DNA of 64,000 nt, taken from NCBI GenBank assembly GCA_905178155.1, contig CAJINV010000001.1, positions 15,004,142 to 15,068,141 of the forward strand, read 5' to 3'. Source of the DNA: Amoebophrya sp. A120. Lineage: Eukaryota > Protista > Dinoflagellata. The notes below the pieces were generated by a model. It was not told the origin of the DNA. It was given only the letters and a program-made list of their open reading frames with translations, and did not search any database. Of this stretch, positions 6,918 to 59,000 are shown in pieces; the stretch's first letter is position 1; each line of letters opens with the position of its first letter. Both the position numbers and the translations under genes were made by a program.

Positions 6918-9900
6918 TCATTTTCCGTCGTCAAAAAAGGCCATGACTTCTTCACTGGGACTGCGTGCGACTAGAGCAGCATATCAACTGTAAAAATGTC
7001 TGGGTCTGGAAGAATCCATGTGTGTCATGCTTGTCTGTCATGACTCTTAAATCTGTCATGCACGTTACCCAAGAGCTCCGCTTTTCTGTGATGCAGAAGC
7101 GCAGTTTGTCATGCAGAATAGGCAACACCTAGGAGCTCAGAAACTTGTCATGCTGAGCCAGCATCTGTAGCCTCATCATGAGACGCCACCCAGCATCACA
7201 AGTTTCCAGACCCAGACATTTTTACTCTCGATACAGCAGACCCTACCGCAAGCTTCGAGAGCGCCGCTTCCGGGGCTGATACGAGCTCCGCGTGGGCCAT
7301 GGGGCTCGCCTCGGTCGATGAGCCGGTGCTGCTGTGCCCCTCCTGCACAGGACTCAGCCCCGGCGGAAACTTCATCCCGCCGCGGTTGGTAGAAGTGGTG
7401 GATGCTGCAACTGCCTGCTGCTGCGGAGGCAGCGGCAGTTCGTTGTCGTCGGAACTCGTCACGGGCGCGGGCGATGTGGTAATCGTGGTGGACGTAGCAG
7501 CAGCTGCTGCGACGTCTTTCGCTCGCTGCATCTCGGCATCGTAGTTCCGAACGAACCGACCGATCGGACTGTCCTCGTTACTGGGGTTTACTCGCGGGCT
7601 CTCCGCAAGATGTTGTTGACCCGGGGTAGTTGAAATAGTACCTCCCGGAAGACTTTGCTGGTGCAAGTAGTCGTTGATTTTGTAGTAATTGTAGTCGTAC
7701 TCGTACGGCATGTAAGGATGATATGCCGCTGCAAAACCACTCCAGTCGTGCTCCGGCAGCTTGTGGCCATGCCAGGAAATGTCCGCGTCACTGCTGCGAC
7801 CGGAACGGTGGGACGGCCGCGGCATCGACCGCGAATCATACCCAGATACGTGAGATGTGGACGGTCGGTTATAATACCGCTCTGAATTTTTTTTTTTCCA
7901 AAAATCGTTGATACTTCTTTCTTAGTGGTGTATTTTTCAAATCTACCGTTATCTATTCGCTACTCTATCCTTGAGCTGCCGAAAATTCTACGGACGGAAA
8001 GCTACATCAATCGGATGTTGAAATCGTTCATTCATTGATTACCCCTAAGTAATATGACCAAGTGTCGATCAGCAGTTGTGTATAGAAAAAGCAAAAACTT
8101 TGTGCTGTTGCATCAAAAAAAACAAAAACCTGCAGCGCTCGAGGGTGGATGCGAGGACTTTGTGCGGTTCAAAAAGAGGTCCGGGTCGTACTGCAGCTGC
8201 GAATGCGCCGCCTGCACCGGGTAGTGGTGATGCGTGTAGGAGCGAAACATATCTGCTTGGATTGCGGCCGCCTTGTGGCTGTTGGTCCGGGACAGCGAGT
8301 TTTTCGATGACGTTTTGGGCATCATGTTATACGGAGGCAGATTGTACTGTCCGAAGTTCCGCGCTTCCTCCGCTCCGTCCGGCCAGGAACTGGTGTAGCT
8401 CTCGGAACGGACCGGCGTGAAGGAAAAGTCCGCCTCGAGGCCCGACGGCCGACTTCCGGCGCCAAGCTGAGGACTCTCGAAGGTATGTACGGCGGACACG
8501 GACCGCGGCAAGTACTGCCCGGCGGCGGTTGAACTCTGCTCTGCATACACTGCTGCTGTTGAGGCAGCAATAGGATCGTTGCTCACCTCCTGCTCGTCCC
8601 CGAAGACTTTCCCGTACCCACTTCCCAGCAACAAAGTGGAGCCCAGCGACGAGCTGGGACCGTGGAAGGTCAGGCTGCGGTTCAACGCGGCCAAATGTTT
8701 GTCCCGCGCCAAAGCCAGCGCCGAAGTCGTTCGCAGCTTCCGGTCGTCGGTGCTCTGCGTTCGTTCCGGGAGCCCATGGATCACCGGCCCGTGGCTCGTC
8801 GTGCTAGTGGAAATGTCTTGGTCTTCCTCTAACCGGAGGTTAGCAACCGCAGCTGCGTCCCCCGGCAGCGGTGCGGCGACACTCATTGGCGATATCTCAG
8901 ACCCCGAAGAGAGCGCCGAGCCGGGAAGCAGGAATTCCGGCGTCGTGTGGATCGGCGGCAGGTTGTAGGGATTCAGGTTTTGCAGCGGGTGGGTGGGCAG
9001 CACCACGGGATAGGCGCCGGTCGCGGTCGCGCCGCCCGCGGTATAATTACCATGTGGTCGGGGTGCTTCCCCGCCACCGATCTGCGATCCGCGAGCCAAC
9101 GAGACACGATCTGCAAGCGTGGGTGGTCGCGGAGGGGGGAGCGGAGAAAGCTGCGAAAACGCCAGGTCCACCTGAAAGTCAAAAGTTGAAGTTTTTCATA
9201 TTGATGTTGTACAACTCTTTTTAACCACGAAATAACTATAGTACCGACATGAACTTACGCACCAAACTCGTGTTCAGGCTAAATCGTACACTCGTCGCGA
9301 CATCTGTCAGACCTAGAAGTGCCCTGATACCACATCACAAAAAAGAACTCCAGAACAACAATGACAGTGACACCATACTATAATGGACTAAAACGGACAT
9401 AATCGTCCCTGCAAACCTTACCAATACTATCCGTTATATCCTTCTATTATACCTGCGGACTCTCCACCACCTCTTCGTCGGAAGCATTTTCCTCGTCTGT
9501 TTCTTCCACCTCGTGCAGAATCCGCCCCTTCCCGGCGCCCTTATAGAACGGAGCAGGTGAAGCGGCACTTTGGTATGACTGATTGAACCCTGCAGATGGA
9601 GAACCGTGAAGATGTTGCTGGTGACCTCCCTGATGTTGTTCTCGTTCTCCACCGTGGTTGTTGTACAACCCTTGTGGGGCGGATTTGGGCGGGGTTTTCT
9701 CGACGACGGAGTACGTCATAGAGTGCGAAAACAAGACGGAGTTGGTTTCGTACGACACCTCCCGCACGCCCCATTTATGGAATTGGAATTCGTCATGGCC
9801 GTCGCCCTCAGGCGACACCGTCAGCCGCATCTCCTCCGCAGCAAAGTCGTACGACAGTGTTCCCGTGATGCGTGCCTCCCGCAATTGCTGCGCAAGCAGC

Positions 9901-12900
9901 TGGACTGCCTCTGAGAGCGGCTCTCGTTCAACATTTTTCGGGTCCATTCCCTCTTGGCCGGCGAGAATTTGCTCCAGGCTTGGGTCCTCCGGGTGGCTCA
10001 TGTGATTATCATAATTTTCGTAGTTGTTGTAGCGCGGCGTTGTAGCGGCGCTGCTTTCCGCAGAGGTCCCGCCCCCGAGGTGGTTATGATCCTTATCGCT
10101 GAGCCCCAACAGCTGCCCCTTGGCCATCTTGATCCCTCGCGGGGCGGTGGACTGCGAGAAGTAGGCTTTTAACACCGCCCGGAGGATCTGTGGTGAGCCG
10201 CAGTGCAGCTGGTACCGGCGGTGGATGCACCGCTCCCGCGAGGGCAGGGCCTGGTAGGTACTGAGAATTTTCCGCTGGATCTCCGGCGATTCGCAGATGA
10301 TGATGGCGTACCGTGCCGTTTTCGGGTTGCGCGGGTTCTTGTTCCGGGCCGTCTGTTTCGGCTGGATGAACTCCCAGCCCGCGCGCACCTGGTCGTGCAG
10401 CGGTCGCAGAATCGTGTGAATCATCCGGTCGTCCTATCCTGAGTAAAAACGTACCCACACCAGAGTCAAGATGGGGAATCGGCTAGACAAATCCACAAGT
10501 TTTGGCTGTTTTGCATGACAGATTTGGATTCGTAGTATAGTGCTGTTTGAGCTAGCTCAGCAGCATCACAGATCTAGCATAATATGCTGATTGGAGCATG
10601 ACAAATTGCAAAACACGACTAGAAAATGCTTCTCATGGAGCTCCGCATGAGAAACATTTTCAGCATGCAGATTTGCATTACAACTCTGGTGTGGGTACGT
10701 TTTTACTCAGGATACGTCCAACCGGTGCGGCAGGTTCTTCACCATCAGCGCCGGCGCGGAATTGAACAGGTCATTACGGATCCGCGCAAAGGTATCCAGG
10801 AAAAAAAGTGTGTTAGTGTAGGTGTCTTGAGGTGACAGCATGACAAAGGTGTTCTGCATGATAGAAAAAGCCTGTCATGCGCAGCTAGTAAGTGAAAACA
10901 ACAATGAAATAGGACTTCATGGTTGGCTAGCATGACAAATGTAACAGTGTTGCACGCTTTGCATCACAGACTTACACTTACACAGTTTTTTTCTTGCATA
11001 AAAGGCCTTGCGGGCAAAATGCGTGCGCGACTCCGGCGTCTCCTGGGCCTCCGTCAACGGACTGTAGTTCCCTGGCTCTTCACGCAGCAGCTCTGTGGTT
11101 TCAGATAGAAGGTCAGGCTAGATTAGAATCAATTACAATTTCACAATGTGGTACAATTTTCATGCATTATTCTATTGACCGTCGCGAAGACGCTGCACAC
11201 TAGTACACAGTGATCTTTCATTTCTTCGCGTGACCTACTTCTAGTATCCGCCCGGCATGATCTATCAGTCTCGTCGTGCTAGCAAAAAAAAGTGATTTTG
11301 TGATGCGAAGATTTCGGTCGCATCAATCAAGCTCAACTGTACTACTAGAACTATCGGCATCTTCGGCATGCATGCATGCATGCATGACAAAAATCGATAG
11401 ATGTACCCTTCTCCGGTGACTCGCACCAATTGGACACCCAATGCACCTGCTGGTGCTTTTTCTTCTCGACGTCTTTCCCAGTTGCGGCGGTCGACAATTC
11501 GTCGGAGTACGAGAAATTCCCGCTAAGTCTGTGTAATTTGTGAATGAGTACAATAATTTTCGTCGCTTGGCCGCTTACGCATCAAATGCAAAACCGGTCG
11601 CTACCTCGGACAAAAATGACGAAGCTCGGTCATGATCTTCTTGTTCTGATTAATTTTGTTTTTTCTATGAGATAAGAAAGTGCCACCAGTCCTGTGAGTC
11701 AGAAAAACATAGATAAGTACTGGTCCAGCATGAGGCTAAGTTGCGGCATGCGGTTGTCGCTGTGCTGCAGCTGCTCCAAATGCAGCACGTGCTTGATGTT
11801 GGGGTCGAAAGCCACCCCCTGATCCCGGACAAACTGCGTCGCCAACAAAAGGAAGGGATCATCCTGCTCGACTTTGAACACCTCATTGGCCGCCGCGTCA
11901 TCATGATTTTCCCCTGTTTTTTGTTCGTCCTCGTCGTCAGAACCGTCGTTCCCGGCCGACGCAGCACCCTTCCGCAGTTTGGTGGTCGAGACCAGGTAGC
12001 GGTTCTGCTCGAACTGGGGCGCCATAGTGACGTTTTTCGCGTCCGTGACAAACTCCTCCCGCTCGCGCATTGTGCGAGGGTGGCCGGTCTGCACCTTATT
12101 CCGCCCACCCGCTCCGAGCCCGAGGGGCGGGGAGGAGTGATGTTGATGTTGTTCTTGCGGAAAGAACCCTCCACCCTTCTTGCTCCCGTAAGAAGTTTTT
12201 CCGCCCGCATAATGACTAGAAGCTGCACTCGTCGTCCCTTTATACGGCTGCTGGTGCTGATGTTTCCCCCCGCCCTTCATCTTTCCGCCTGCTTTGCCCC
12301 CTTTGTTCATCTTTCCACCGGCTTTGTCAAAAGTCTGGACGGGAGAGGACGACAATGACTGATCACCCATCGCATGTTGAAAATGATCTTCCCCATACGT
12401 GTTTGCGAAAGGATTGTAACCTTTATTACCGCCCTTGTACTTCCCCTTCTTCCCGCCTCGAGCCGCCCCCTTGTTTTTACCGAATTGCTGCTGGTAATGA
12501 TCACCCGGGAAATTATAAACTTGGTCGTCGTGGTGACCTCGGAAGGCAAGCGATCGCCGAGGGGATGCGTTGGGGCTAGCGAACTGCTGATGATACTGCG
12601 ACGCCTCATTGTAATGGTCGTCAGCATCCTCATCCGACTCGGCTGCTGCCGGCGGGGGGCTATGAAAAGTCTGCTGGCTTTGCTGCTGAAGCAGTTCCAA
12701 GTTCTGCTGAATTTGCTGCTGCAGCAGATACTGCTGGACCAGTTGCTGCTGCTGCTGCTGCATGGCCGCAGCGCCTCCTATCACGGGAACGGGCGGGTAC
12801 TGGGGGCCCGCGGGATGGTGCTGGTACATCAACGGAGCTTGTTGTTGACCATGAGGCGGAGCGAACGCAGGAGCCGCACCTGCCGCTCCAGGCTGGTGGT

Positions 12901-16301: not shown

Positions 16302-18445
16302 TCAGTTGTAGGTGTAAGTAGACCCTGCTGCCGTCGTGTTAATGGAGTCCTCCTGTAGAAATATTACGGTTTAAGCTCTTCATGTTCTTCAAATTTGTTT
16401 AAGTACATCTTTCATACGTCTTCGATCATCTTTTCATTTTTCTTTTTGACCAATGGAGTAAAAACAAAGACTATTTCAAAACTTAGCTAGTACCGTGGCC
16501 CGGCGGGGCAGGAAACTGTCGTCCTGGGGCAAGACGAAGGGAATACTACTGAAGGGGTCCTGACCTTCCGCTGCGGCTGGCGGCGCCACAAACCCCGGGG
16601 GAAAGGCCTGAAACAACAGGTTAGCCGCTGCTGCCGCTGGATTTTCGATGTATAAATATTGTCATACTCGTCCGGCAACAAAAATACGCTGATACTCAAC
16701 ATATTGAAACATTTTTTTTTGCAACATTTCTTATTCTTTCACACTTTCAAGTGCAAGAACAAATGCAAGCGAACAAATCGAAAAAAACATAATCCATACG
16801 TGGCAATGGCTGGTGCGGCAGAAACATGCCTAAGTTCTGCGGAAACGCCTGCTGTGCCACGGCGTACATGTTGGGATGCGCGAAGCCGAATGCTGCCGCC
16901 GGCTCGTATTGAGAGGAAAAATCCCCCCTCCCCATATCGAAATGGAAATCTGTGATGCGGGATTTCCGTACACAAAGCGGCTCTGTCTTGCAGTAGAGGA
17001 CTGCAGGTAGATACAATGCCGGAAAAGGGGCGTTTTGGTGTAGGCACCTAGCAAGGCAGGCATCTCCTCCGTACGCCCTACAGCATTAAATTTTTGCCTA
17101 CAGGACGCGCCGAGGTTTTTGGATTTGCCTTCTTGCAATACAGAGACGATTTGTGGTCTCAAATCAGCATCACAAATTTTCAGAAGTATCTCGGTTTGGT
17201 ATGGGGAGGGGGGATTTTTCCTCACAATAGCTCGAATCCGGTCATCGGTGGCATACCCGTGTAGTCCCACAACGGGGCCTGCGGGGGAAATTATCGATTG
17301 CAAATATTCGAGTCTGGAGTGGGAAAATTGCCAAGTCTGACTCTTGTGTTGAATATGCGTCTGCTCGTACGATTTTTTACATCCGAACTACATCGTGTGT
17401 ACGAATTTTTACATCCGAACTACGTCTGCCGAACGGCAAGAAAAAGATTTTTTTGCAATTCTCCAGAACCAGAACTCATATTTGCATCGCATATTGCGGG
17501 CACCCCGGCAATCTGCGGTGGCGCGGGGACGGCAGCTGTTTTTATATTAGAAAGAGAGGAAGCGTATCAGTATCTTTCGCACAACATCCAGAATACTTTC
17601 TCAACGTCAGGACACAGTATGAAACGTAAAGAAATCCGATGGTGCAACAAATCGCCTCCAACTATGTATAGTATCATCGACCAGTACGGATCATGTTCCC
17701 ATTCCCCGCTTGCTTTCCTTTTCCCTTCTGCGGCAGCGGTGCCGGTGGGACCATGTTGTCACTGGAAGCTGTCGTGTCCTTACTCGCCGCGTTGTAGGCA
17801 TGAAAGGATCCCAGGGATTTCTGTGGTTTGATAGAAAGGTCCAAATTGCAGCTTGAAATTTCTGCCACGTGCGAGCGGTCTCTGGCAACTTGGAGGTCGA
17901 TCAGCATCAAAACGAACAAAACAACCATCATGGATTCTCCTTCTCGTCCTACGAAACAAAAAACAACGCAGCAGTGAAAAAGAAGCAGCAAGGACGATAA
18001 AAAACACCGCTACCCCCGCCACAATGGCCAACTCCTGCGCGAGCACCATGGGATTCATCGTACCACAAATCCTGCAGGCCTGATTCCGTCGGAATTGCAA
18101 GTCTTCGCAGGTGGGACAAATCCAGTCCCCGGGCACGTACTTGTACACCGACTTGGGCTGCTGCGGCTTAGACGGTGGTGCGGGGGCGGGTTGCTGTTGT
18201 TCGCTCGGTTGGCTATTGTTGTTGCCCCCGCCACTGGCGGTGGTACCCGCTCCGCTGCTGGCATTAGTACTTACGGTGTTTCGGCCGTGCTGGTGCGGCC
18301 CGTGGTGGTGCTGGTGCTGGTGGTGGCCGTACCAATTCGCCTTGCTGTTGTACCAATTATTGTAGTTGTGGTAGTAACCCGGCTTGCTGGCCCCCTTTCC
18401 CGCTCCCTGGTGTTGGTGTGTGTGATTCGGACCCGCAGACTGCAT
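16302..18445 (-). CDS. multi-exon RanBP2-type zinc-finger (putative RNA-binding) protein
   Basis: GDWICPTCEDLQFRRNQACRICG in exon 1. Downstream exons join in frame (KSLGSFHAY..., PAVPAPPQIAG, APLWDYTGMPPMTGFE|PAAAFGF..., AAAANLLFQAF..., EDSINTTAAGSTYTYN*). The 3' end is uncertain; an alternative stop lies at 16476. Confidence 0.7.
16907..17229. mobile_element. introner element, TIR family E (323 bp), TSD GCTCG
   Basis: 30-bp TIR TATTG(A/T)GAGGAAAAATCCCCCCTCCCCATA with 1 mismatch. GCTCG at 16902-16906 and 17230-17234. Removal gives ...MTGFEPAAAF... in frame. Non-canonical boundaries. Confidence 0.93.
17292..17493. mobile_element. degenerate introner remnant inside an intron (TSD lost)
   Basis: TATCGATTGCAAATATTCGAGTCTGG vs reverse complement of the right end TATGCGATGCAAATATGAGTTCTGG. 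TAT...ATA ends. Internal direct repeat TTTTTACATCCGAACTAC x2. No matching 5-bp TSD. Confidence 0.6.
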
Positions 18446-19471: not shown

Positions 19472-22400
19472 CTATCTTTTTCGTTTCCGACTCATGTAGC
19501 GTTCCACGAGAATCTTCTTGCATAGTTCCGTCTATGGAAGCGTCAGGTTTGAAATCGACAAAGTTGAAATGATTTGTCATGGATAAAATGGATACCAGTT
19601 GGCAGACCAAATTCCAAGCGGCGCATGACAAATTTTCGGAGCACCGGAATCCAATTTGTCATGCTGTTTGGGCACAGAGGACTGCTTTTGTCATGCAGCT
19701 TTAGCAGCTCTATCCCAAACCCTAAATAGGCTCACAATCTGCCTCACTTGCCACCCCGGCAAGACAGGCACTTCATGCCTTGCATTCTATGCATGACAAG
19801 TCTTCATTTCAACTTTGACGATTTCAATCCTGATAGATCCATACCGTCCATGCGAGCCGTAGTTCGTCGTCCTCTTTTTTGTTCCTCCTGGCTTGCTATC
19901 AACTGTAAAAATGTCTGGGTCTGGAAGAATGCGCGATTTTTCATGCTGCTTTTCCATGACCCATGAGGTCTGGAATGCAGGACCTAGCATGATAGATTCT
20001 GCGAGACCTTTCCAATGCCTATCCTCCATGAGAAACTACCTCCCGACTTGGTCAAAACTGGACGACTTTTGGTAATCATGCAACACAGATTTTTGCATGC
20101 TGCAGATTTAGCATGACAAGTTGCATTCTTCCAGACCCAGACATTTTTCCATTTGATACTTGCCGAGTTTTCTCCAGCGCCTCTGCCTCCCTCCAGACCT
20201 GTATCGCGTGCCTCGCGCACAGCAGCACACCCGTGAAGAGGCGCTGCGCCTTGTTGGTGTTCGCGTCTTTTGTCCATCCGGACGCCGCTTCGATGTAATC
20301 AAATTCGTGCTTGCGGCACACTTCCTTTGCCAAAGCCCGCGGTACCCACGCACAGTTTCGCGCAATGTCGTTGGACCACAGAATCTTTACGTCGACGCCT
20401 GAAGGCTGTTCATTGGAAGTAGTAGTGCATTTCCTGCTACTCTTGCCCAGCACACCATGTTGGTCCTCTATTCCCGGCTTCGTCGTACTGTTCGACTTCG
20501 TCTCGACGGGAATAGGTTTCCCGGAGTCCAAAAACCGTGGCTGCTGCGTTGCAGCGCCAAAGGACGACCCGAAAGACGACAATTTTCCGAATGACGCAGT
20601 GCCAAAGCCGCCGCCGCCAAATGAGCTTGACGAACTTGTAATGAACCCCAAAGAGGAAGAGGAGGAGAAACCCGCAGCGGCCGCCGGAGCTGCAAACGAC
20701 GCTGCAAACTGGCTTTTGCTACAGTTTTTCACGGTCTGGGGAGCGGCCTGCTGCAGCTCGGATTTGGAATTCCCATTGATGTCTTGTTCATCTTGCGCAA
20801 CGTCTCCGTGTACCCAGATTTTTTCCTCCTGCTGCAGTGAAAAAATGACCACGCTGTCGATCGTATCTGGTCGTATAGAAGCCGTTTTCGAAGTAGAACT
20901 GCTACTAGCCGATGCCCCTCGCAACAAGCCCTGTGAGGATGTGTATAATTGCTGTGTTTTCGACAAGGAGTGTTTCTCGAGAAAATTGTCCAGCGCGCAG
21001 TCCCAGTGTCCGTACTTGTTCCGCACTGAGAGCAAGTCGGTCGAGGCCAGCTTCCGGTCGACCGCGTTGTTGTACCGCATTTCCTTGGTCAAAGCCACCA
21101 TGTTCGCATGCAAGTCGTACACCGGGCGGTCCTCCGTTTGCCAAACCGCGAACAGAATCTCGCTGCCGCCGACCAGGGGCGTCTTCCGCTCCACCCCCTT
21201 CTCGCCCATCAGGACTCGACGGCCCCGCTTGCGCCACTCGTCTGCGGTGCGCAGGGGGTACACGTCGGTGCGGGAGTAGATCTTTTCTCTGCCCTTGAAC
21301 AACCCTTGCATCTTCGCGCTCGGGTGCAGCTTGTGCTGCTTGTTGTGCGCAAATTCCGCGCTCAGGCAGTAGACCAGCGAGTTCTTAAATTCCTCCTTGG
21401 TGCGGGGAAACGCATCCTTCACCTTCAGCTTTGTCCGCCGCAGCTCCAGCCACCACCGTTTCAGCGCGAGGGGCAGGTTGGAAAGCCTGATCTTATCGTG
21501 AAACTGGTGTCGCTTGTCCCAGCCGATCGTGTAGGTAAACTTCTTGAAGGGTGCGGTGTTTGGGTCCAGCGTTATTTGCACGCCGAGGGCGCTATTGTGT
21601 GGGGTGCAGCAGTACTGTTTCACACTTGTATTGTTCGTTCCATTTTTAGTACTAACCAAAAGCCTGTTGCTTGTCACCGGGTCGTCCTGTGCAGCTCCTG
21701 TGGTCGCCCCCACGGTGTCTTGCGTCGCAATATCCACAAAGGACGAAAAATACCCCCAGGGCTCTGTTTCCGTGCCGAGTGAGAAAAGGAAGCGGTCCGG
21801 CGTGAAACTGTTATGATATCCACTAGCGGAGCTGTGCTGCATAACACCTTTCTTGCTCTTCATTTTGCTTGCCACAGAGGAATTGTTCACCTTCCCCAAA
21901 TGAAGACTAGTGCAGCTCCCCGTAGTTGCTACTAGATTTCTGGCGAAAACCTTCCGTGCGTTTCGGGCCGTTTTCTCCTGCCTCTCTGCATCTTTCGCTT
22001 CCGCAATGGCCTCGTCAGAGAACAGTTGCTCGTGGTGGATCCGAACCTGCAATGCCTTGAACCCGGGAACTGTGGAGGCCGCCCAGAGAATCGGGGCCTT
22101 CTTCGCATAGAACCGCTGGTAGGCAAGTTGCAGAATGAAGAACGACGTCGGGGTTTTCAGCTGCAGCACTTCAAAGACGGAGGAACAGGGGGCGATATCC
22201 GCCACACATCCCTCGAACATCTCACGCTCTTCCGAGGATGAGAAAAACGCACGGATATCCTGCAAGATCACGTCACGTTCGAGTGCTGACGAATGCTGCT
22301 CTAAGCCATTTCTCGTCTTGTCGGCTGCCTCGACGTCCCGACCGGCATTTTTCGACGCCACCATCTCAGAAGAGCTGGCGGTAGGAACAGCCTTTATTTT

Positions 22401-25910: not shown

Positions 25911-28900
25911 TACCAAATGCTCGCCTGCCTCATTTGCTTGCGAAATGGGCGTGTTGTCTTCTAGTGTTTCTGTTTGTTCGGCATCCTCCGAAGCAGACGC
26001 CAAATTCTCCTCCTGGTCTGCATCGACGGTTGGTGGTGCAACCTCTGCCGCGGTGGTCGCGGGCCGCGCGGTCGCTTGCTCTGTGCCTTGCGGCGAGGGT
26101 GCCGGTGTTGGCACTCTGGCAAGCACCGCTTCCGCCTGCGCGATGAGGTGCGGATTGGAGCACGGCCCTGAGAAGTGAGTGTGAGACTTGGTGGAACTAT
26201 AATTCCTACATAGTTTGCTTTGAGTGACCTCATCTTGTTAATCCGTGGTGCGATCGAAGAGCAGCCTTACCTACTGTATGTAATTGACGCGTAGATCTAC
26301 CGTACGAGAGGTGGATAAGACATCAGACATCAGGACGCCAGACGTAAAAGTCTTATACGGAGTTCTTTCACTACCTTTGTCCAGACATTTGCGGATGTTC
26401 GCCGAGTTTTCGTCTTTCACAGCTTTTGCAAGTTCCAGCACTTTCTTTGCCTTGTCCAGCTCTTCTTTCTCTACCGCGGTGCGCTCCGCCATTAAGATCG
26501 CGGTTTGCAAGGCGATAATGTGCACATTCTCCTGCTGCATGCTGTATCTTAAGGACTCTACCGCCTCGAACCGGCGTAGCTTTTTCTTGTAGTTGGTTTT
26601 CCGGTCTTCCGGAATCTCCGTGAGAACGGCTTCCGGCAGCGATTGCATGGTCTGCAGCGACTTCCGGAGCTGGTCCGGGTCCTGCTGCTTGCACGAATCC
26701 CGGAGAGACGCCAGCACGGACCCCACCGCTTGTTTGTCCTCCCCCTGCACACCGTTCAGAATCCGGGCGTCCTCAGCGTCCGCACGCACTACAGACGAGG
26801 CGTGACTGAAGGACCGCCCGCCCATGGAAGGAATAGACTGCTGCAGCACATCCACCGCAGCTTGCTTATCTCTTTCAGTTGCAGCTGCAATCTCCTCCTG
26901 GGAAGCTGGAAGCACTTCCGCTGCTGTAACTTCGACTACACCTCCTCTGGGAGCGCCGGCGGGTGAAGCAGCAGCAGCATCATCTCGCCCAGGAGACGAC
27001 GCGTCCGGACTGCTGAAGCTCGCGCTGTCCTCCTCATCTACTCGTACTTCTCGAGCAGCGGCGTTTTGTTCCCCCGGAGAACGCAACAGAGGAACATGCT
27101 CCGTTGGAGACGACGGGAACGCAGCTCCCGGCGTGTTGATATCTTGCCGACTAGTCGTTTCATCTGCGCTGATTTTGCTCATACCGTTATTTTCTTTTTC
27201 TACTTTGTTCTCGATCGCATTTGCCTTGCTGTTGTTCTTGGCCCAGACCTCTGAAGCTGCGATGCTCTCCCCATCGGCAGCGGAGGAGCTCGATGTTTGT
27301 TCAGCAGTAGCAGACGGCTGGCCGCCTGAGGGACGACCTCCTCCGGCCTCATCCGATTGGCTGCTTTGCTGCTGTTGATTCTCTTCCTCCGAAGTGGTGG
27401 CACTCGATGAGGAAGAGGAAGCTTGGTCTGCAGCTTCTACTTCGGCAGATGGACCACCTTCAGGTTTCTTCACACCTGCACCTAGGACCACGTCCTGTAC
27501 CTGCATCTCCTGTGCATCGGCCTATCCTGTGCAAATGTGCCTAGGGGGTAGGGTAAACAAAAAAAATGTTATGAAGAAGGTGCAAAAAAGCCGGTGTTGA
27601 TGTTGGTGGTGAAGTTGGTGGCGAAGGTGGTGCCGAAGCTGGTGCCGAAGCTGGTGCCGAAGCTGGTGCCGAAGCTGGTGCCGAAGCTGGTGCCGAAGGT
27701 AAGAACAAGACTCCTCCTCATCTACCTGCTCGAAGCTATTATACGTCTACTAAGAAGCGCAAGGGTCCTTATAATTAAGACTAGATAGCATGCTGATGAT
27801 CTAGCTAATTAAATTACTATAGTCACTATCGATTTCTTTTACGTAGCGATAGGTCAGCGCGATCTACTAATAGAATTATCTGCAGCATTTCCAGCATTAT
27901 TTCGATGACAGATCTGAGAACCGACCTCCTTGATAGCTGCTGGATGTCATTGCTGCAGTGCCAGCTACAGCTGCAAATAATAGCAAAAGAAGAGATCATC
28001 CACGCGCCAAGTGCTTCACTATCTTCGTTCCGGGCACCACCTGGTGCCCGAAACGAGGATAGTGAAGAACTGGGCGTGTGGATGATCTCTTCTTCATGCC
28101 CGAAATAATGGCGCGTCTTCTTGTTCTTCTACTTCTTGTTTTGCACTACAACTGCATTCGGAATTTTATTGAGCTAGATCACAGGTGGCTGGAGTCTATC
28201 TCTGCCTATATGCTACTGACGACCCTTGCGCTTCTATTCATTCTAGATCGTGCGCGCCAGCAGAAAGTGTAGTTGTAGCAATAGGAGCAGCTGACGCACC
28301 TACTAAATATAAAGAACGTAGCTACTAGTCTCACCGACAATAAGTTTGCGGACCGATATAATAGGTAGTAGCTACATACAAAGGCCTTCGTCCGATAGCT
28401 AGCTCCCTAGCTAGTTGGCTAGCTAGCAGCCCGTCGGTCTGCTTAAATAAATAAGTGACTGCTCTTCTTGGTCTGGTAGTGTGTTGTATTTAGCATCATC
28501 GTCGTTTATCGTTATCCTACAGGTGTAGTTGGCTTATACTTTAATCAAAAAAAGCAGCTGCAGCGGCCGTCAGCATGATCGTGATCAGCGTCAACTTCGC
28601 GACCTCCGCGTGCTAGTCGCGGCCGGGCGTTCGAGCGTTTTGTGCAGCAATTGCAGGTGGGCTCCTCGCACCAGCACCAGAAGTCACGACCTCCTGATGC
28701 ATCCGCGTGATCGTCTTCATCCGCGTGACCGTCGACGTCAAAAAGTGCGACACGAGTGTCGCGAAAGTCGTGTCAAAAAGTGCAACATAACGCACACATT
28801 CGGAGTGCGCAAATGCGCACTATTTTTCGCAACACAAATGTCAGAAATGCAAAAAAAGCTGTATTTTTATCAGCCTAAGAATTTTGGATTTTCCTACCCC

Positions 28901-31900
28901 CTAGGCACATTTGCACAGGATACGGCCGCTGACGGTACAACTCCTCTTGCGCCGCCGACGGTCATTGCTGCACCACGAGGACCAAGAAGACCTTTATTTC
29001 CACCAACTTTCCACCTCGGGGTGATAGAGATAGACTCCTTCTTTATGCGTTCCAGGTCCGCGTCCAGCACTTGCATCGACCGCGGAAGACTCTCGTACTT
29101 CCGGGTCGCGGCTTCCAGCCCCGCCCTGTCATTGGGATCGCGTTGGGCCAGAAAGAGAATCACCTGCTCGAGGGTAGACCGTGGGGAGGAAAGCGGTTCT
29201 TGGTCCTGGTCTTCTACCGCTTGGTAGGGCACGGCCTCGAGGTCATGCGGAGGCGAATCGGGGCTGTCGGTGAGTCCTAGGTCATCCGCGATGACGTCCC
29301 GAGGACGAGGACCACCCGGAAGATCCTTATCCGCGGCGATGAAGTCCCGACCCACAGAAGCGGGCGTCGTTGGCTTGGGCGGGCTGACAGCAACTTCTAT
29401 TTCGGGCTTGTCGACGACGTCCTGCGTAGTTGCGCTAGTAGACCCGACCAGAACTTCTTGCTTCGCTCCGACCGATGCGGCGCGTGCGGCTCGAGCGGAT
29501 GCCTGCGCGACGGGGGAAAGGTCGAAGAGGCTTCCGTCGGAAACGAGACTGCCACCCATGCCAGGAGAGGACCCTGACGGGCCTATTGGTGGCCCTTGCA
29601 ATCTTGCCTGCTCCTCCTCTGTGTCTGCAGAAACGTCTGCCTTCTCAAAAGGCGCAACCGCAGGAGCGGAAGCCCGACTAGAGTGCTGCAGCTGTTCTGC
29701 CGCGGACGGGGCGGCCGGCGGTCCGCCTGCGTCTACAGCATCCGGGGGTGGCACCGCTGCGTCCTCTTCGTCGGATTTCGCCATCGCAGCAAAGCGCTGC
29801 TGCTCTTCGGCAGCCGCGGCTGCTTCCAGTCGTTCCTGCTCCAATTCCGCGATCGAAAGTTCGCAGGCATCCAACAGGGTCGCCAGCTTCACTTTTCCTT
29901 CGGCAAAAACCGGAACCCGTTGATCCGAAGGCGGTATACCGAGAAGCGCATCCACTTCGCTGTTCTCTGGACTGCTCCCGTGTTCGTGGTTTACAGCATG
30001 AAGAGCACCGCCGTCTTCTAGCCCAAGCTGGGCCGCCATTTTCCGGTACTCTCCCAGCGCCCTTGCGTGCTTCAGCAAAACCTCTCGGGACACAATATTT
30101 CCATTCTGCAGGTCTAGTTCTCTCTTTGTCGCTTCCACGGAACTGAGCAGGTGCGCACAGGACTCCTCGTGTTTGCGAAGAAAATTATTCGCAACAAGTA
30201 AATCGACCGGCTTCAACTTCTGGCTTGCAATCAGTGCTGTGACCAACGACGCATCCTGTGTCGCCATAGCGTTTTCCAGCCTGCGCATTACCTGCTGGTC
30301 CAGATTTTTTGTCTGTTTAGCGACCTTTTCCTTCTCCAGGAAGCTCTTCGCGCGCTCCATATCTTCAACAGCAAGACCGATGGCCAGACTGCTTTGCGAA
30401 GAAAGCGTATGTTTGTCTGCTGGTGAGGACGCAGCAACAGAAGTTTTCTTTGCGCCAGCATCACGATTGGCCTCGTTGTTCGCATTCTCTTCTATCTGGT
30501 CCACCAGCGCCTGTACACGCGCACTGTCTCCGCGCAGCATCAAAGAGACAAAGTTGATTTTCTGCCGGAGTAAAACGACCGCGTCTTTGGCTTCCAGCAG
30601 GAGCGGATGGTCGGTTTGCTCCAGTACACCCCATGCTTCTTCTGACTGCGGTGACAGCAGATGCCCGTGCAGGTTTTCGAAGTTGCTCGTAGTGTTACTG
30701 CTCCCGCTCCGGAACAAGTCTTCTTCTAGCATTGCCTGGTGCTGGCCTTCTTGCAACTTCTTACTCTCTGCACCAATGGGTGAAGACCGCGCAGTGTCGA
30801 GCAAATTCATGCTGCTCATCAAGTCCATGACTTCCCCCGGAGAAGGCGCCTTGCTGCTGTTCTCATTTTCCCCATCGCTTGCATTCTCCTGATCCAAAGA
30901 AAACATCCTCTCGTCCTCATCTATCTGCAATTCCCCTGGCCCAGCGAGCGCCCCTGTCGAGGGGACATCTACATCACGAGGACCCTTATTCATCATTTTG
31001 CCCTTCAACCCTGGCCGCGTTGCGACTTTTGGCCCTTCGGCCACCTCCGGAAGGTCAAAATTCTCGCTGTCCGAGCGGAAGAACCTTGTCTCGTTGCACA
31101 AAACCACTTGTCGCTCAAGTCGGTGTAGAATCTTCTCCAACTCTTTTGCGTCGTTCGTTTTCGATTTGTCCCGCACGTCTTGGAGGATCGCCGTCAAGCT
31201 CAGTGTGTGCTTGGCATAACTAGCCAGTTGTGCCTCCGTGTCGATGACCTTTTGCAACAGAGCCTGCTCCGCTTGCCGTACAGTTTTTTCTTCCTCCAAG
31301 GACTTCTCCGATCCCGCGGACGATGAAACACTGCGCTGCAAACTTGCCGTCCCCTCGATGGGGCTGAAGGGGGTTCCCCCTGCTGGTGATCCTGCAGAAG
31401 TTGTTCCACCACCCATAGCTGCGAGATTTGACCCCGATGCGGAGTTGCGGTTGAGTGTCCGTCGGAGGTCGCGCAAGTACGTGCGCAAATCCTGCAACTT
31501 TTCGTTTTCCAACTTCGTGAACGCGTCGGCTCGTTCGTTAGACGTGTTTGGCGGCCTACTTCTGCTAGTAGAAGAACTTGCGCTCATTCCTGCGGCCCCG
31601 AGCTTGGACGTTGTGCCTGCAAGCTCCAGGCTACGAGCCTGGTAGAGCTTCCGCACGGCGCCGAAGTCCTTCAGTTTCTGACTGGTCTCTTCCCGCTTTT
31701 TGATCGCAAAAATGTGGCGCAGTCCGCGGTCACAAAACGCCACGACTTCCGGCGCCACGTTCTTCTCCGCCTTGGTTTTCTCCAGAAGTATTTCGTCCTG
31801 CGAAGCGATGTCCTTCACATACTTCACTTTGAGCGCGCGGCTCGTCGCTGTCAACACGGCACTCAGGTGCTCCGCCTCAACCCGCGACTCGATGGAAAAG

Positions 31901-52705: not shown

Positions 52706-55392
52706 TCACGGTTTTTTATCTGCGAAAGCAGACAAGTCCACGTTACCCATGGTCTCGTCCTGTTCCTCGTCTGAGTCTTCCTCGTCGTCATCCCTTTCGT
52801 ATGGATTGCAAAAATGTCTGGGTCTGGAAGATTGCAACTTGTCATGCTAAAGCCGAATCATGCAAAAATCTGTGTTGCACGACTGCCAAAAGCTGTCCAC
52901 TTTCGACCAAGTTGGGAGGGAGTTTCTCATGCAGGATAGGCATGGCAGAGACCTCACAGACTCTGTCATGCTAGGTCCCGCATGCCAGACCTCATGGGTC
53001 ATGGAAAACCTGCATGACAAGTTTACACTCTTCCAGACCCAGACATTTTTGCAATCCATATTTCGGCGTCGGAGGCAACGTCGCGTTCCAGAATTTCGTC
53101 GTCACCGCCTTCCTGCACCTCGGGTTTGCTCTTCAGGACAAAAACGCCTGTGTTTGGTGATGAAGACAACAACATTTTTACTTATGTGGAGGTTTTTACA
53201 GATAAAATTCATGACGCGCCTTTGGGTGGAACAAACCAAGCTACTCTGGCACTTCATCTCGGGGGTGCGATGAAAAAATGAATGCAAATGCATGAACTTG
53301 GCCCCGTGGTGGAAAACAATAAATTAACCGTATGTATACCTCCCTTCTTTTCGATGGTTGATTTGATACGGTCCAGCGCAGCATCGATTTCTTGCATGCC
53401 GGCCTCCTTTCCCACCGATTGCGTGGTGACGTCGTAGTGTGGTGGAGCGACCACTTTGATGGCAATCTGCCCCATGGTTGACCCCTCTACTTTCGCTGCC
53501 TCGCCCTGATTATGGATTGCAAAAGTGTCTGGGTCTGGAAGGTTGGAACTTGTGATGCTAACTTTGGACTCTAAAAAATTTTGTATTGCATGACCAGCAA
53601 GGGGAGTCCGGTTTGTGCTACGCGTGCTGGAAGGCATTTGTCATGCGGAATAGGCATCAGGAAGGCCTCTGAAAATCTGTGATGGTAGGGCTGCCATGAC
53701 AGACATTCTGTGTCATGCAAAAACAGCATAACAAATTTCGGATTCTTCCAGACCCAGACATTTTTGCATTTGATACTGATCCAGTCCCGCGAGAAGGGCT
53801 TCCTTTACGGCATCAATGCTATGGATGTGTCAGAGTTGAAATCGACAAAGTTGAAAGAGTTTGTGATGCATAAAATGTAGCCCACAAATTTCCTGTCTTG
53901 CAGAGTAGGCAAGTGAGGCAGATTGTAAGCCTGTTGAGGTGTAGAAACTGAGCTGCTGAAGTTGCATGACAAAGGCAGTCTTCTGTGCCCAAACAGCATG
54001 ACAAATTGGATTCCGGTGCTCGGACAATTTGTCATGCGCCACTTGAAAACTAGGCGCCAACTGGTGCCCGTTTTACGCATCACAAATTATTTCAACTTTG
54101 ACGATTTCAAACCTGACGCTTCCATAAATGCCCTCGATTTCGTAGCAGTAGACCTGAAATTGGATAACTTTATAAAAACGATTCTACTACTTCTACCCCA
54201 ATCCCCATACTAGGATGTTGATCATCTACCGCAAAAACAAAAAAAATCGTTGCTGAAACTACAACAAGTTGTAGCTCTATTCACTATTCTATTACCTCGA
54301 TCTTTGCTTTGAGCTTGATGGCCTGCGGGGTCAGCTTCTTCTCGATGATCTGCAGCATGTTCTTGAAAACCTTTTCTGGGACATCCATGTCCCCAAAAAT
54401 GCCTTCATCTCTGGAGTTGATGTAGCTGTTGAATTTATTTGTGAATCTTCATGACATCGTGTAGAAAAATCCGCACGACACCTTGCCGATAGTTGTACCC
54501 ATCTGTCGCGAAGAGAATGCGAAGAAATTTATTATTTTGCACCGCGCAAAACGTCTTCCTGGTGAATCACTTGCAAGTTGCAGCCATCAACATCATCTGC
54601 CAACAAAAATCATCAGAAGTACTGTTTGAACGCGTCCACAGCGTGCGGGTACTTCTTGTACAGCGGCCATGCGATTTTCTGGCACAGCTCCTCGCACGGA
54701 ATCTGGTGCACGGCAGAAAGTTGTCGCATCGTGGAGTGGACCAACTTTGACTTGGTGTATCTCTGCAAGAAAGTTGCTCGGTCGTCGGCATTCACACGTC
54801 TTCGGCTCATATCCAAGTGACCTGAGTAAATTTGTAGAATTTGTTTGAAATACTCCATGCAAAAAAACGCGGCTGTTAGACAAAGGAAGTTGTGCATTCA
54901 GCTTCCTAGGAGGTGAGTTAGTACTTCTCATAACGTCGTGAAATATTAAAATATTCAACCTAATACCTCTTTCCTTGTCCACACGGAGCACCAAGCAGAC
55001 GCAAAATTGTCCGACCCGAATCTCCTTCAACATGGATCGAATTCGCCTTGTGCTGACTTCGGAAAACAGGATCATACCCTCCAGACCTGTTGTTGATGGT
55101 AATAGAAGAAAACTTTTTCAACAAATGTCCGCAGAAATTTCCGATAGCAAGAAGATTATATGTGCATTATTTCACTGTCCAATCATGCCGATCCAATGTC
55201 GGAAAAAAACCGCGGACCTGAGTATTCCAGACACTGCACGTAGGCGGACGTTTCTGCGACGCGAAGCACTTTCACCATCACCAGCTCGTTTACATTCGGC
55301 ACGTCATTTTCGTAGAACCTGGGTTCTTTGTTCCGCTTGAACATATTCCGCTCCTCATCCGGAATCTCGTCAGCGCCCGGAAGAACCACCAT
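52706..55392 (-). CDS. EIF2S1: translation initiation factor eIF2 alpha subunit (9 exons; 3 introns are TIR elements)
   Basis: Motifs RFYEND.P..NELVMVKV, EGMILFSEVSTRRIRS, GHLDMSRRRV, IAWPLYKKY, LTPQAIKLKAKIE|VYCYEIEGI|DAVKEALLAG and VVAPPHY, plus an acidic tail ending AFADKKP* (52706). Confidence 0.95.
52800..53060. mobile_element. introner element, TIR family A, inverted copy (261 bp), TSD TTTCG
   Basis: Perfect 32-bp TIR TATGGATTGCAAAAATGTCTGGGTCTGGAAGA. TTTCG at 52795-52799 and 53061-53065. The interior is the reverse complement of the 19897 and 57255 copies. Removal gives SDAERDDDEED. Confidence 0.96.
53511..53775. mobile_element. introner element, TIR family A (265 bp), TSD CTGAT
   Basis: Left TATGGATTGCAAAAGTGTCTGGGTCTGGAAG, right CTTCCAGACCCAGACATTTTTGCATTTGATA. 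CTGAT at 53506-53510 and 53776-53780. Removal gives AGLDQGEAAK; retention hits an in-frame stop. Confidence 0.95.
53820..54126. mobile_element. introner element, TIR family C (307 bp), TSD AATGC
   Basis: TIR TATGGA....TCAG..TTGAAATCG.CAAAGTTGAAA. AATGC at 53815-53819 and 54127-54131. Splits the conserved EGI|DAVK motif of eIF2-alpha; retention hits an in-frame stop. Confidence 0.96.
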
Positions 55393-56014
55393 TTTCGGAA
55401 AACTGTGTTTGCCAGATGAAATAAACGGTGTCTATGCAGTAAAAAGGTAAGTGCGAAGGAGGAGGAAATCTAGCGAAGTTGTAGGAATAAATTGGACTAA
55501 TACTCTAATTTTGTGAAACTAGAACAACCAGCCAGTGCGTAAAAATACAGAGCCTGGATTGCGAATGCAAGATCAGATGCGAATTCAAGTGCTAAAACGG
55601 AACATCTGGGGATCGTTGTGCTGGTAGAGAAAAAAACTCAAACTACAGATCTGATTTACATTCGCGCAGAAAAAGGGAGCTGCCTCACGCGTCTGCAGCC
55701 GGAAAGTTGATCGCAATGTCCACAAGAAAGTAAAACTGGTGAGATCTTCGTCCCGCATAGGTGAATATTTGGGATTCGTTGAAAAAGCTGTCGCACTTTT
55801 AGATCTTTTTTCTACATCGAGCCATGGAACAAAGAAATGGGTAATCTCAGCAACGTAGAAGCAGCTGCGGAGCTTCTTTATTTTGAACAGCAAACAAAAC
55901 TGTGCAAGTTGCATATATTTTTTTATTTTTTTCGCGAAGTTTTACGTATATCGATCTCGATGTGCAAAAGTTCAAGTTGGGAAAAGAAAACAGAGCAGCT
56001 CAGCAAATGCAAAA

Positions 56015-59000
56015 TCACGCCGCCTCTTCGCCACTGAGAATGCTGAGCGCGTCTTTGAGACCATCGATCTCTTGCTCCCTGCGTTTTTTCGCCTCCTCCG
56101 CACTGGGTCCAGCGCAGGTCTGCTTCAGTTCCAGCGAGTAGTTTTCCACGTAGCTCAGCTCTTTCAGCTTCTCCTCCCGGTCGGTGTTGAGGTTATTCAA
56201 CAAGGTTTTTTGTTTCTCCATGCGTCGTTGCAAAAACAGGTTGCTTTTCTCCAGCTCCGCCTTCGCAAGCTTCTGCGTGGCGACAAACTGGTCAAACAGA
56301 GCCCGGTCGCGCAAATCTGCCCCACGGACCACGAACAGCTTCAGCATCTGGTTCTCGGCGACTTTCTCCACCAGCGCCAGCGCCCGCCGCCAGCTGTCGA
56401 CGGTGACCGGGCTGATGCGCAGACCAATCGACTGGTCGGATTCTTGGTTTTCCTCCTCCCGCTCGAGGTTCTGTTCTTCTTCCCGAACCTCGTCTTCAAT
56501 TTTCTCATTGACCGCTTTTCGCGACAGTGCCGTCGCTGCGGCGAAAGATGTTGACGTGGTTGATTGCTGCGCTTGTTGGAGAAAGCTCGTGAAAGAGGAT
56601 GTCAGTGTGTTTTGCATTGTTGCTCCTCGTACAGATGAACGTTGGTTCGTGATAATGCTCTTCGCCGCGTTGTTTCCGAACTGCACCAGCCTATTGGACG
56701 ACTCGAGCATTCTCTCGAGATCGTGCGACAAGTCTGGCGGCGCAGCGATGGTGTTCAGCATCGGGAGCTGAGCGAGGGGGACAAGTTCAAACGACGGAGA
56801 GGTGGCACGAGGATCTACTACTGGTGTAAAAACTTCTGTCTGCGGCTGCGGCACTGGGGACAGGATTTGCTGTGGTAATGGCGCTGCCTGCTGCCCAACA
56901 ACAGCAGCGGTCAACGGCTGTACCGGGAGTACAACCGACGAAACAGGCGGCAAACTGCGACCACGCTCCGCTTGCACATTCTCGGCTGCTAGGCCAGCGC
57001 TTTGCGCGATCGCTGGAGCGGATACTACACCAGCCGCAGTCGTAGGCACGACCTGCACACGCCCCTCTGATTTATTTGACACGCCGCCCCCCACTGCTTC
57101 AACCGGCGCAGCAAAGGTCGGCAGGAGATCATGCGGATTTGATGTTACTTCCTCTCCGTTGCCCTCCGCAGCTTTGACGTCTTCCAAGGAGAAGCCGACG
57201 TCCGCACTCCTTCCGCGCACGAAGTCCTCCGAGTCGAATTCGTCATTTTCCCTCTATCAAATGCAAAAGTGTCTGGATCTGGAAGAGTGCGCGATTTGTC
57301 ATGCAGCTTTTCCATGACCCATGAGGTCTGGAATGCAGAACCTAGCATGGCAGATTCTGCGCGATCTCTCTCATGCCTATCCTGCATGAGAAACTCCCTC
57401 CCGACTTGGTCAAAACTGGACGACTTTTGGTAATCATGCAACACAGATTTTTACATGCTTCAGATTTAGCATGACAAGTTGCATTCTTCCAGACCCAGAC
57501 ATTTTTACATTTGATACCCTCGCCTCTTTCGCAAAATGGATGTCCTCCAAAGTGTCCTCGTAGAGCTCCCGCAGCTTCTGCACGACCCTATCCAATTTCT
57601 GCAACTGCGTTTTCCCCGCGTGCAGCAACCCGTCGGAGATTTGCTTGTCATCCGCCCGGAGGTTGCTCGCGTCCTGCACGGCCACGTCGTACTTCGCCAT
57701 CTGATTTCGGTTGTCGTCTTGCGCCAGGCCGTTCTCCCGCAGCGTCTTGTCTACCACACTCATCTGTTGGTCGATGCCCGTCAGCGCCTTGCGGAGTTTT
57801 GACCGCTGCTTGCGGTTTTTCTCCGCCTCGGATTCACACATCGCCTTCTTGTCCTGCGCCGCAGCCATCTCCGTCCTCACCTTGCCGATCATATCCGTAA
57901 TCATGCGCCTCACCTTGTCGAACGGGCCGGCCGCGGTGGTCTGGGACAATAACGCCGCTTGCAGCAGGTCGAGTGGTTTAGCAGCGGCTTGCAATCGGTC
58001 GAAAGAGGGATCGACGCGGCCGCGTTCAGCTGTGTAGTTAAAGGATTCTTGTTCATCCGACTGCAGGGATGTAATGCTGTCTTGTTCACCAGCTTGTTGG
58101 TCATTCGTTTTCCTATTCCTTCCATCTGCGCCTGCCTGCAGGAGTGCGACAGACTTCGTTGTGCTGGTGTCTCCTGTCGTCTCATCGATTTGCTTCTGCA
58201 GCTGCTCCTCTTCTTGTGCGGGGGAGACGAGGTCATCTTCTACGGAAGTTGTGATCAACGACTGTGTCGTTGCAGCTTCGTTAGAAGGAAGACTTTGTCG
58301 ACTCAACGCATCCAGAGCCGCGTTTGCCATGTTGCGCAAGTTCTCAGCCTTCCTCCCGTGATGTTCATGCTTTTTTGCTCCTTCAGCTGTTGCACCAGCG
58401 GCAGTCGCCGTTTTCGACCCAAGTTGCAGAAAGAACGTCGGAGCAGCAGGTGGTGTTTTTTTTTCTGATTCTTGACTGTCACTGTTTCCAAGCTTCACAG
58501 TTGTAAACGGAATCGTGTCGGAAGTCATCACCGGCTTCTCTAGCGGTCCATTCACAACATTATCGACAATATCAAACGCCTTGTCCAAAAGCGCCGAATC
58601 CGTCAACAGAAACTTCTGCTTCTGCAACCGGTCAATGTCAGCGCTTGGGCTGGTGCTAATCGATGCTGGAGGGGGCGACTGCGCTCTTGTTTTGCTTTCG
58701 TCGAGTTTCGTTTCCCGCTTTGCGTTGTCTTTCGAATGATCTTCTACTTTGTGGTCGCCGTGCAGCAGCCACGGCATCACGTCGTGAGTGCTGAAATAGT
58801 CGTTGGTCTCGCTTTTCCTCCAGGGAAGAAGAGAATTGGACTTCTGCTGTTTTGTTGAAGAAGAAGATGACGCGGCCGCTGCAGCAACAGTGCTTGTTTC
58901 CGCTCCGTCTAGCTTACTCGTGCTGCTCGTCGTTTCCTCAGCGTTCTCCCGCATCAGCTTCATCTGTTCGTTGTCGTGCTGTTCCAGGGACAAAAATGAA

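What the first reader, a model, noticed from the sequence alone, without database searches (positions are those of the whole stretch)
52795..54131. eIF2-alpha requires removal of three non-GT-AG elements
Seen: the three elements in eIF2-alpha give boundaries AT...AC (52800), GT...AA (53511) and TT...AG (53820) under the NT...AN model, and none gives GT-AG under precise excision either. Retention causes stops or a frameshift. The 53820 element splits the conserved EGI|DAVK motif next to a 27-nt micro-exon. The elements at 10793 (TT...AC) and 16907 (CT...AC) are also non-canonical. Known: eIF2-alpha is essential. Inference: splice sites are set by the TIR stem bringing both junctions together, via a relaxed spliceosome, a non-spliceosomal nuclease/ligase route or DNA-level excision.
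Basis: partly seen in the sequence, partly recalled or inferred. Interest (0 to 1): 0.78.

Follow-up and report, generated by a model that had tools for sequence, protein, structure and literature searches.

The report
Transposon introns spliced without GT-AG
Three hairpin-shaped transposon copies interrupt the eIF2-alpha gene of the marine parasite Amoebophrya and are missing, together with one copy of their 5-base target duplication, from RNA assemblies although no cut position reads GT-AG; such introns are already published for this organism, and the addition here is that the cuts likely fall at fixed distances from the hairpin (1 base before, 4 bases after).

Summary
The gene is eIF2-alpha of Amoebophrya sp. 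A120. Removing each TAT...ATA element plus one copy of its 5-nt target duplication gives exactly the annotated 343-aa protein, with EGIDAVK. The elements, the retention stops and the lack of GT-AG are confirmed. The NT...AN model is not: RNA contigs skip 266 nt (261+5) at 52800, and their total length fits precise removal of the other two. Five more window elements behave alike, three of them passing over an in-frame GT-AG. These are the non-canonical introners published for A120 (PMC7789003). New here: one RNA-pinned junction and four mismatched duplications in a sister assembly point to one register, donor N|TAT and acceptor 4 nt past the terminal ATA; one further site leans against. Boundary letters are near exon background. 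Best mechanism, inferred: a relaxed spliceosome guided by the hairpin (about 0.5); rival: a stem-measuring nuclease/ligase (about 0.3). This scan noted a similar case in Prorocentrum (e1-7693921).

The parts
52707..55392 (-). eIF2-alpha gene, 9 coding exons, 343 aa (lower end approximate)
   Evidence: Spliced model identical to the annotated A120 protein P0001; E 2e-71 to yeast eIF2-alpha; RNA contigs X3 and X5
53820..54126 (-). Introner, 307 nt, splits EGI|DAVK; intron 312 nt, likely 53816-54127 (TT..AT)
   Evidence: TIR and 5-nt repeat; fold z -7.6; removal shown by RNA contig length, summed with the 53511 element, and by P0001
53511..53775 (-). Introner, 265 nt; intron 270 nt, likely 53507-53776 (GT..CA)
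52800..53060 (-). Introner, 261 nt; intron 266 nt, likely 52796-53061 (AT..AA)
   Evidence: Direct RNA joint 52794 to 53061 in X3 and X5 with 5 letters fitting both sides; absent from DNA run X1; fold z -11.2
54127..54153 (-). 27-nt micro-exon (26 nt in the inferred register) between a GT-AG intron and the 53820 element
53776..53814 (-). 39-nt exon between two elements
53148..53339 (-). Canonical GT-AG intron, one of five in the gene (others 55087-55217, 54822-54966, 54426-54622, 54154-54295)
   Evidence: RNA joint for this one; the others from the model and contig length
17288..17494 (-). Degenerate element intron (element 17292-17493) whose flanks no longer match; pins the cuts 1 nt before TAT and 4 nt after ATA (AT..TT)
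   Evidence: RNA joint 17287 to 17495, 0 letters fitting both sides, X3 and X6; anatomy
57255..57516 (-). Introner removed as element+5 although an in-frame GT..AG is available
   Evidence: X3 record 12 joins 57249 to 57517
10435..10714 (-). Introner removed as element+5 (285 nt); in-frame GT..AG not used
10793..11000 (-). Introner removed as element+5 (213 nt, by record length in X5 and X7)
16907..17229 (-). Introner removed as element+5 (328 nt)
27523..28922 (-). 1400-nt introner removed as element+5 (1405 nt); in-frame GT..AG not used
19897..20158 (-). Introner in a Rad4/XPC-like gene (name recalled, no call); only the right-hand RNA boundary seen, which fits element+5
19533..19843 (-). Introner; no RNA joint listed; precise removal keeps the frame
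6982..7233 (-). Introner; outside both RNA lays; precise removal keeps the frame

Best explanation
The three inserts are non-autonomous TIR transposon copies (introners) that are missing from RNA assemblies together with one copy of their 5-nt target duplication, likely because a relaxed U2-type spliceosome cuts at fixed distances from the paired element ends: 1 nt before the 5' TAT and 4 nt after the 3' ATA. Shown: anatomy, strong predicted hairpins, net removal of element+5, an intact protein, and near-indifference to boundary letters. Supported by five sites: the 1+4 register. Inferred: insertion by a transposase encoded elsewhere; the stem bringing the ends together; N-UAU standing in for the native GUAY donor; the spliceosome as catalyst. 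Because 1+4 equals the duplication length, an exonic insertion would restore the original coding sequence whatever the target, which would explain the spread into conserved exons.
For: Net removal. Direct joints at 52800 (266=261+5) and 57255 (267=262+5) and at 10435 (285), 16907 (328) and 27523 (1405). 10793 by record length (213). 53511 plus 53820 by summed length: 765 nt between the listed pieces in both X3 and X5; the precise model gives 768 less a 3-nt overlap, and NT...AN at these two would give 771. Model equals P0001. Register. 17288-17494 is pinned at 1+4. In the sister assembly: L034 gives TGA if position 5 comes from the upstream copy (ORF 220 vs 281 aa); L074 gives TAG if position 1 comes from the downstream copy; at L036 the A120 orthologue has Gly, the upstream allele at position 3; at L063 both homologues read SFCC, the upstream allele at position 4. 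Only 1+4 fits all five. Indifference. 5 of 135 oriented elements are GT-AG in any precise register; duplication letters follow exon background at 4 of 5 positions. For the spliceosome. 1+4 is the one register of six that puts the element's TAT at +2 to +4, where 14 of 18 canonical introns have TAY. A120 has U2, U4, U5, U6 and nearly all snRNP proteins, U1 undetected (PMC7789003 passages). A review reports spliceosomal removal of MITE-derived non-canonical introns in Fritillaria (PMC11282704 passages).
Against: No call shows the catalyst. No preference for G at +1 or AG at the end is seen, though a spliceosome normally reads both (established knowledge). Both ends are predicted to be buried in the stem, and the three eIF2-alpha 3' ends lack a YURAY branch motif. 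The register rests on five sites; 11 of the 16 sites inspected could not be polarised, and at L078 the best solved homologue has Leu, the downstream allele at position 1 (Phe/Leu is a mild change). At the pinned intron all five intronic duplication letters differ, more than drift suggests, so it may be atypical. Table S4 of PMC7789003 lists NT-AN for 8 of the 9 commonest A120 motifs; aligner placement inside 5-nt repeats may explain this, which I did not test. The 53511 and 53820 junctions were not seen singly. All RNA support is contigs of one sample of one study, labelled RNA by guess, and P0001 may not be independent of it.
Confidence: 0.5

Rival explanations
1. Same elements and same 1+4 register, but a non-spliceosomal, structure-measuring endonuclease plus RNA ligase cuts on either side of the stem, as proposed for euglenid nonconventional introns.
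For: Boundary letters are nearly free. An in-frame GT-AG is passed over at 10435, 27523 and 57255. Stems are very stable, and a 1400-nt element is removed as exactly as a 208-nt one. Euglenid introns are reported to leave as circles, not lariats (PMC11282704 passages).
Against: The register matches the native GTAY donor. A nearly full spliceosome is present. No candidate nuclease was looked for or found here.
Confidence: 0.3
2. Splicing is RNA-level and precise but the register is not fixed: cuts slide within the duplication or differ by family, and some families may use NT...AN and add a codon.
For: PMC7789003 calls the splice sites variable relative to the hairpin and lists mostly NT-AN motifs. 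Mismatches between duplication copies lean to third codon positions (16 of 33, p=0.05), as if both copies were constrained. L078 leans the other way from the four other sites.
Against: No +3 product at any of the 8 intact elements with full RNA support. Five sites converge on 1+4.
Confidence: 0.12
3. Elements are cut out of the DNA in the transcribing stage, as with ciliate internal eliminated sequences.
For: TA ends and precise removal resemble such systems (recalled). DNA and RNA runs may come from different life stages, which I could not check.
Against: DNA run X1 shows no 52794-53061 joint, and its flank contigs run into the elements (contigs drop rare variants). The 1+4 asymmetry follows the direction of transcription at five sites.
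Confidence: 0.04
4. The junctions are reverse-transcriptase jumps across a hairpin between direct repeats (an artefact recalled from the literature, no call), and the elements stay in the real mRNA.
For: Element plus one repeat is what such jumps give, and only cDNA-derived contigs were seen.
Against: Retention truncates eIF2-alpha to 234 or 250 aa. The 17288-17494 junction has no repeat. Conserved residues are kept only in the spliced reading.
Confidence: 0.03

Closest known systems
Introner elements / non-canonical introns of Amoebophrya sp. A120 (Farhat et al. 2021, PMC7789003; read: abstract, passages, sections 11 and 12, supplement part 3 and legends; figures not seen)
   Same: Same organism by protein identity; inverted repeats starting TAT with an A-run, direct repeats of 3-5 nt, hairpin, non-GT-AG ends, RNA support.
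   Different: The text gives repeats of 3-5 nt and variable or unknown splice positions. Here the repeat is 5 nt and the cuts appear fixed at 1+4. The paper reports fewer elements in core translation genes; this one has three.
A120 introner families in Gozashti et al. 2025 (PMC12130899; read: passages, part 15 of 33 of Dataset file 8, legends in file 1; files 13 and 14 not searched)
   Same: TIR DNA elements of about 250-310 bp with mostly non-canonical ends.
   Different: In the rows seen the superfamily is Unknown, duplication calls are 2-5 nt or absent, and no fixed register is given.
MITE-derived non-canonical introns of Fritillaria borealis (seen only through review PMC11282704, passages)
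   Same: TIR plus target duplication; removal attributed to a changed U2 spliceosome.
   Different: Fritillaria keeps preferred ends (AG-AC, AG-AT); here the end letters are nearly free.
Euglenid nonconventional introns and hemistasiid diplonemid non-canonical introns (review PMC11282704 passages; PMC12621601 abstract only)
   Same: Variable ends and base pairing that brings the intron ends together; mechanism unknown.
   Different: Euglenid introns are reported as circles with CAG/CTG stem motifs; the excised form here is untested.
IS3EU/GingerRoot DNA transposons (PMC10045372, passages)
   Same: TA..TA termini.
   Different: Their duplications are usually 6 bp; here 5. No transposase was examined.

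Membership tests
Amoebophrya A120 introner elements | Host is Amoebophrya A120 or a very close strain | tested here: met
   Spliced model identical to the protein named Amoebophrya sp. A120
Amoebophrya A120 introner elements | Inverted repeats at intron ends starting TAT, with an A-run about 7 nt later | tested here: met
   218 of 222 termini start TAT, A dominant at positions 11-15
Amoebophrya A120 introner elements | Direct repeats of 3-5 nt at the exon-intron boundary | tested here: met
   5 nt at 11 of 11 intact window elements; 191 of 410 unfiltered pairs in the sister assembly have 5 nt, 3 have 4 nt
Amoebophrya A120 introner elements | Repeated, related copies | tested here: met
   Five related copies in the window; 121 copies of one family in the fetched loci
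Amoebophrya A120 introner elements | Removed from transcripts with non-canonical ends | tested here: met
   (contigs; RNA by guess; one sample)
U2-type spliceosomal intron | GT/GC...AG ends | tested here: not met
   No precise register of the three elements gives them
U2-type spliceosomal intron | Lariat with branch A; snRNA dependence | not testable with these tools
   No raw reads of this strain (X13 covers only element-like sequence); no genome held
U12-type intron | AT-AC or GT-AG ends with the U11 donor consensus; U11/U12 present | tested here: not met
   AT..AC at 52800 belongs to the refuted NT...AN reading; U11/U12 reported absent, not rechecked
Euglenid-type nonconventional intron | Stem joining variable ends | tested here: met
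   Predicted folds
Euglenid-type nonconventional intron | Excision as full-length circles | not testable with these tools
   No suitable reads
IS3EU/GingerRoot | TA..TA termini | tested here: met
IS3EU/GingerRoot | Usually 6-bp target duplication | tested here: not met
   194 of 251 paired termini at 5 nt, 0 at 6 nt
IS3EU/GingerRoot | Cognate DDE transposase | not tested
   No ORF over 100 aa lies wholly inside the 1400-nt element; no autonomous copy fetched

The most novel reading that the evidence does not exclude
A120 runs a ruler-type splicing system that ignores GT and AG altogether, reads only the UAU/AUA-capped stem, and cuts 1 nt before and 4 nt after it. The offsets sum to the transposon's 5-bp duplication, so every exonic insertion is silent. 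The catalyst is a new stem-measuring nuclease/ligase, or a spliceosome that no longer checks the terminal intron nucleotides.
Probability: 0.3. Interest if true: 0.8.

Novelty: already known. Interest (0 to 1): 0.42.

Why it matters
The existence of these introns in A120 is published; how they are removed is an open question. A fixed 1+4 register turns that question into concrete tests: it predicts the exact ends of the excised RNA (for lariat or circle mapping), which duplication letters are exonic, and which minigene changes should shift or block splicing. It would also correct gene models and explain why the transposons are tolerated even in an essential translation factor.

Tried and rejected
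NT...AN (+3 nt) model: rejected by RNA lengths. Cryptic GT-AG or a silent copy with an expressed paralogue: RNA contigs match this locus with 0 other letters in the listed pieces, and the exon-1 search gave one A120 protein among 9 candidates (low sensitivity). No own genome is held and the sister loci are not searchable as a genome, so snRNAs, paralogues and transposases were not searched genome-wide. No eIF2-alpha relative in viral contigs. Raw-read run X13 laid only on element-like sequence, so no raw read crosses a junction. The apparent G enrichment at duplication position 5 in the window (7 of 11) vanished in 135 sister elements (41 seen, 43 expected). Position 4 shows U depletion (p=0.006, n=135) but weakens at stricter cut-offs (0.05, 0.17) and does not survive correction for 17 positions: not used. 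No G-G or A-C pairing of first and last intron letters is evident. Polarising mismatches by AT/GC direction failed because the element mutation spectrum was noisy and the synonymous asymmetry was not significant (7 vs 2, p=0.18). No fixed branch A in 18 canonical introns. The L036 downstream exon gave no PDB match. Earlier notes near this place: none.

Full report
Observation. The minus strand of 52.7-55.4 kb encodes eIF2-alpha. A scan for TA[TC]...[AG]TA pairs with matching ends gave 32 candidates in the window; 11 have an exact 5-nt direct repeat outside the ends, three of them in this gene. All three fold into long hairpins (z -7.6, -11.2, -5.7).

Identity. Exon 1 matches at 100% a 343-aa protein named Amoebophrya sp. 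A120. Removing five GT-AG introns and each element plus one repeat copy reproduces that protein letter for letter. It reads EGIDAVK, as does a more distant relative, P0003.

RNA. I laid four runs on 50500-60000 and four on 9600-29400. Contigs of X3 and X5 skip 52795-53060, 266 nt, with five letters fitting either side: the element plus one repeat, not the 263 nt of NT...AN. The other two eIF2-alpha joints were not among the rows shown, but both records have 765 nt between their listed pieces. The precise model predicts 768 less a 3-nt overlap at intron 1; NT...AN at those two would give 771. This tests the two as a sum only. Elsewhere, element+5 is removed at 57255, 10435, 16907 and 27523 (direct) and at 10793 (record length); 19897 shows only its right boundary, which fits; 19533 has no listed joint; 6982 was outside both lays. 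At 57255, 10435 and 27523 an in-frame GT..AG was available and not used. Limits: X3, X5, X6 and X7 are one sample of one study, kept as contigs, labelled RNA by guess, and several joints carry 'between: not known'. P0001 may rest on the same data. DNA run X1 lacks the 52794-53061 joint and its flank contigs enter the elements; contigs can hide rare alleles. Raw-read run X13 holds only related element sequence.

Where are the cuts? Identical repeats leave six equivalent positions. One window intron breaks the tie: 17288-17494 (X3, X6; no letter fits both sides) is a decayed 202-nt element with 1 extra nt before TAT and 4 after ATA, again five in all. For more cases I fetched 133 loci with the commonest repeat. 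All come from one metagenome assembly, whose CAP exon matches the A120 protein exactly over 52 residues. Without a terminus library, 191 of 410 candidate pairs, many of them mispairings, have an exact 5-nt repeat, against 3 with 4 nt. With a library built from those perfect elements, so partly circular, 194 of 251 do and none has 6 nt. Gene direction was called with a codon model that was right for 10 of 11 window elements. Of 16 mismatch sites inspected, five could be judged. L034 needs position 5 from the downstream copy, else TGA. L074 needs position 1 from the upstream copy, else TAG. L036 has the orthologue's Gly only with upstream position 3. L063 has the SFCC of both homologues only with upstream position 4. 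These four allow only 1+4. L078 leans the other way: the best solved homologue has Leu, the downstream allele at position 1. Under 1+4 the eIF2-alpha introns read TT..AT, GT..CA and AT..AA.

Boundary letters. Among 135 of 192 perfect-repeat elements that passed the orientation filter, 5 are GT-AG in any precise register and 9 under NT...AN. Repeat letters follow exon background except for a U deficit at position 4 that does not survive multiple testing. The constant signals are the element's own TAT and ATA (218 of 222 termini) and the stem.

Mechanism. Shown: anatomy, net removal, restored protein. Supported: the 1+4 register. Inferred: the stem positions both cuts. I favour a relaxed spliceosome (0.5) because 1+4 is the one register that places the element's TAT where 14 of 18 native introns have TAY after G, and because A120 keeps U2, U4, U5, U6 and almost all snRNP proteins while U1 is undetected. 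Against it, neither G+1 nor AG is favoured, the ends are predicted to be paired, and the three eIF2-alpha elements lack a branch consensus, so a stem-measuring nuclease and ligase stays at 0.3. Variable registers (0.12), DNA excision (0.04) and RT jumps (0.03) are the lesser rivals.

Known work. Farhat et al. 2021 (PMC7789003; abstract, passages, sections 11-12, supplement part 3 and legends; figures unseen) describe these elements in A120: over 60% non-canonical introns, TAT-starting inverted repeats, 3-5-nt direct repeats, unknown mechanism. Gozashti et al. 2025 (PMC12130899; passages and supplement parts) class the short A120 families I saw as TIR DNA of unknown superfamily. IS3EU/GingerRoot share TA..TA ends but usually make 6-bp duplications (PMC10045372 passages). 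PMC12005148 and PMC11453091 (passages) add no register. Paper searches found no statement of a fixed 1+4 register; Figures 3 and S19-S23 of PMC7789003, which I could not see, and subscription papers (Roy 2023, Henriet 2019; not read) may bear on that.

Verdict. A real and striking feature, already known for this organism. The register result is the only new element; it rests on few sites but makes the open mechanistic question testable. Interest 0.42.

Noticed in passing
window 27523-28922: A 1400-nt element with perfect 30-nt repeats, an internal 12-nt tandem array (27576-27710) and a 53-nt hairpin (27987-28094) is spliced exactly; no long ORF inside; not scanned against Pfam.
   Followed up: partly
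P0002 (A25 eIF2-alpha): The A25 model aligns to P0001 only to residue 220, just after EGIDA, and then appears out of frame; possibly a mis-annotated non-canonical intron near the same site.
   Followed up: no
window 53775-53820, run X1: DNA contigs join the end of one element family directly to the start of another (10-12 contigs per joint); likely adjacent insertions at other loci.
   Followed up: no
window 57430-57516, run X13: RNA reads of a run with the same species label carry a related element end unspliced, running into a flank that is not in this window (74 reads).
   Followed up: no
L001-L133: Mismatches between duplication copies lean to third codon positions (16 of 33, p=0.05), more than a freely drifting intronic copy would give; unexplained.
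   Followed up: partly
L050 92-2306: Seven elements within about 2.3 kb, leaving exons as short as about 35-60 nt.
   Followed up: no
L008 2244-2485: A 17-nt tandem array with inverted symmetry that mimics element ends.
   Followed up: no
window 1-64000: The long ORFs and all RNA-supported introns lie on the minus strand, as in the unidirectional clusters reported for Amoebophrya; one ORF runs 2563 codons without a stop (28894-36585).
   Followed up: no
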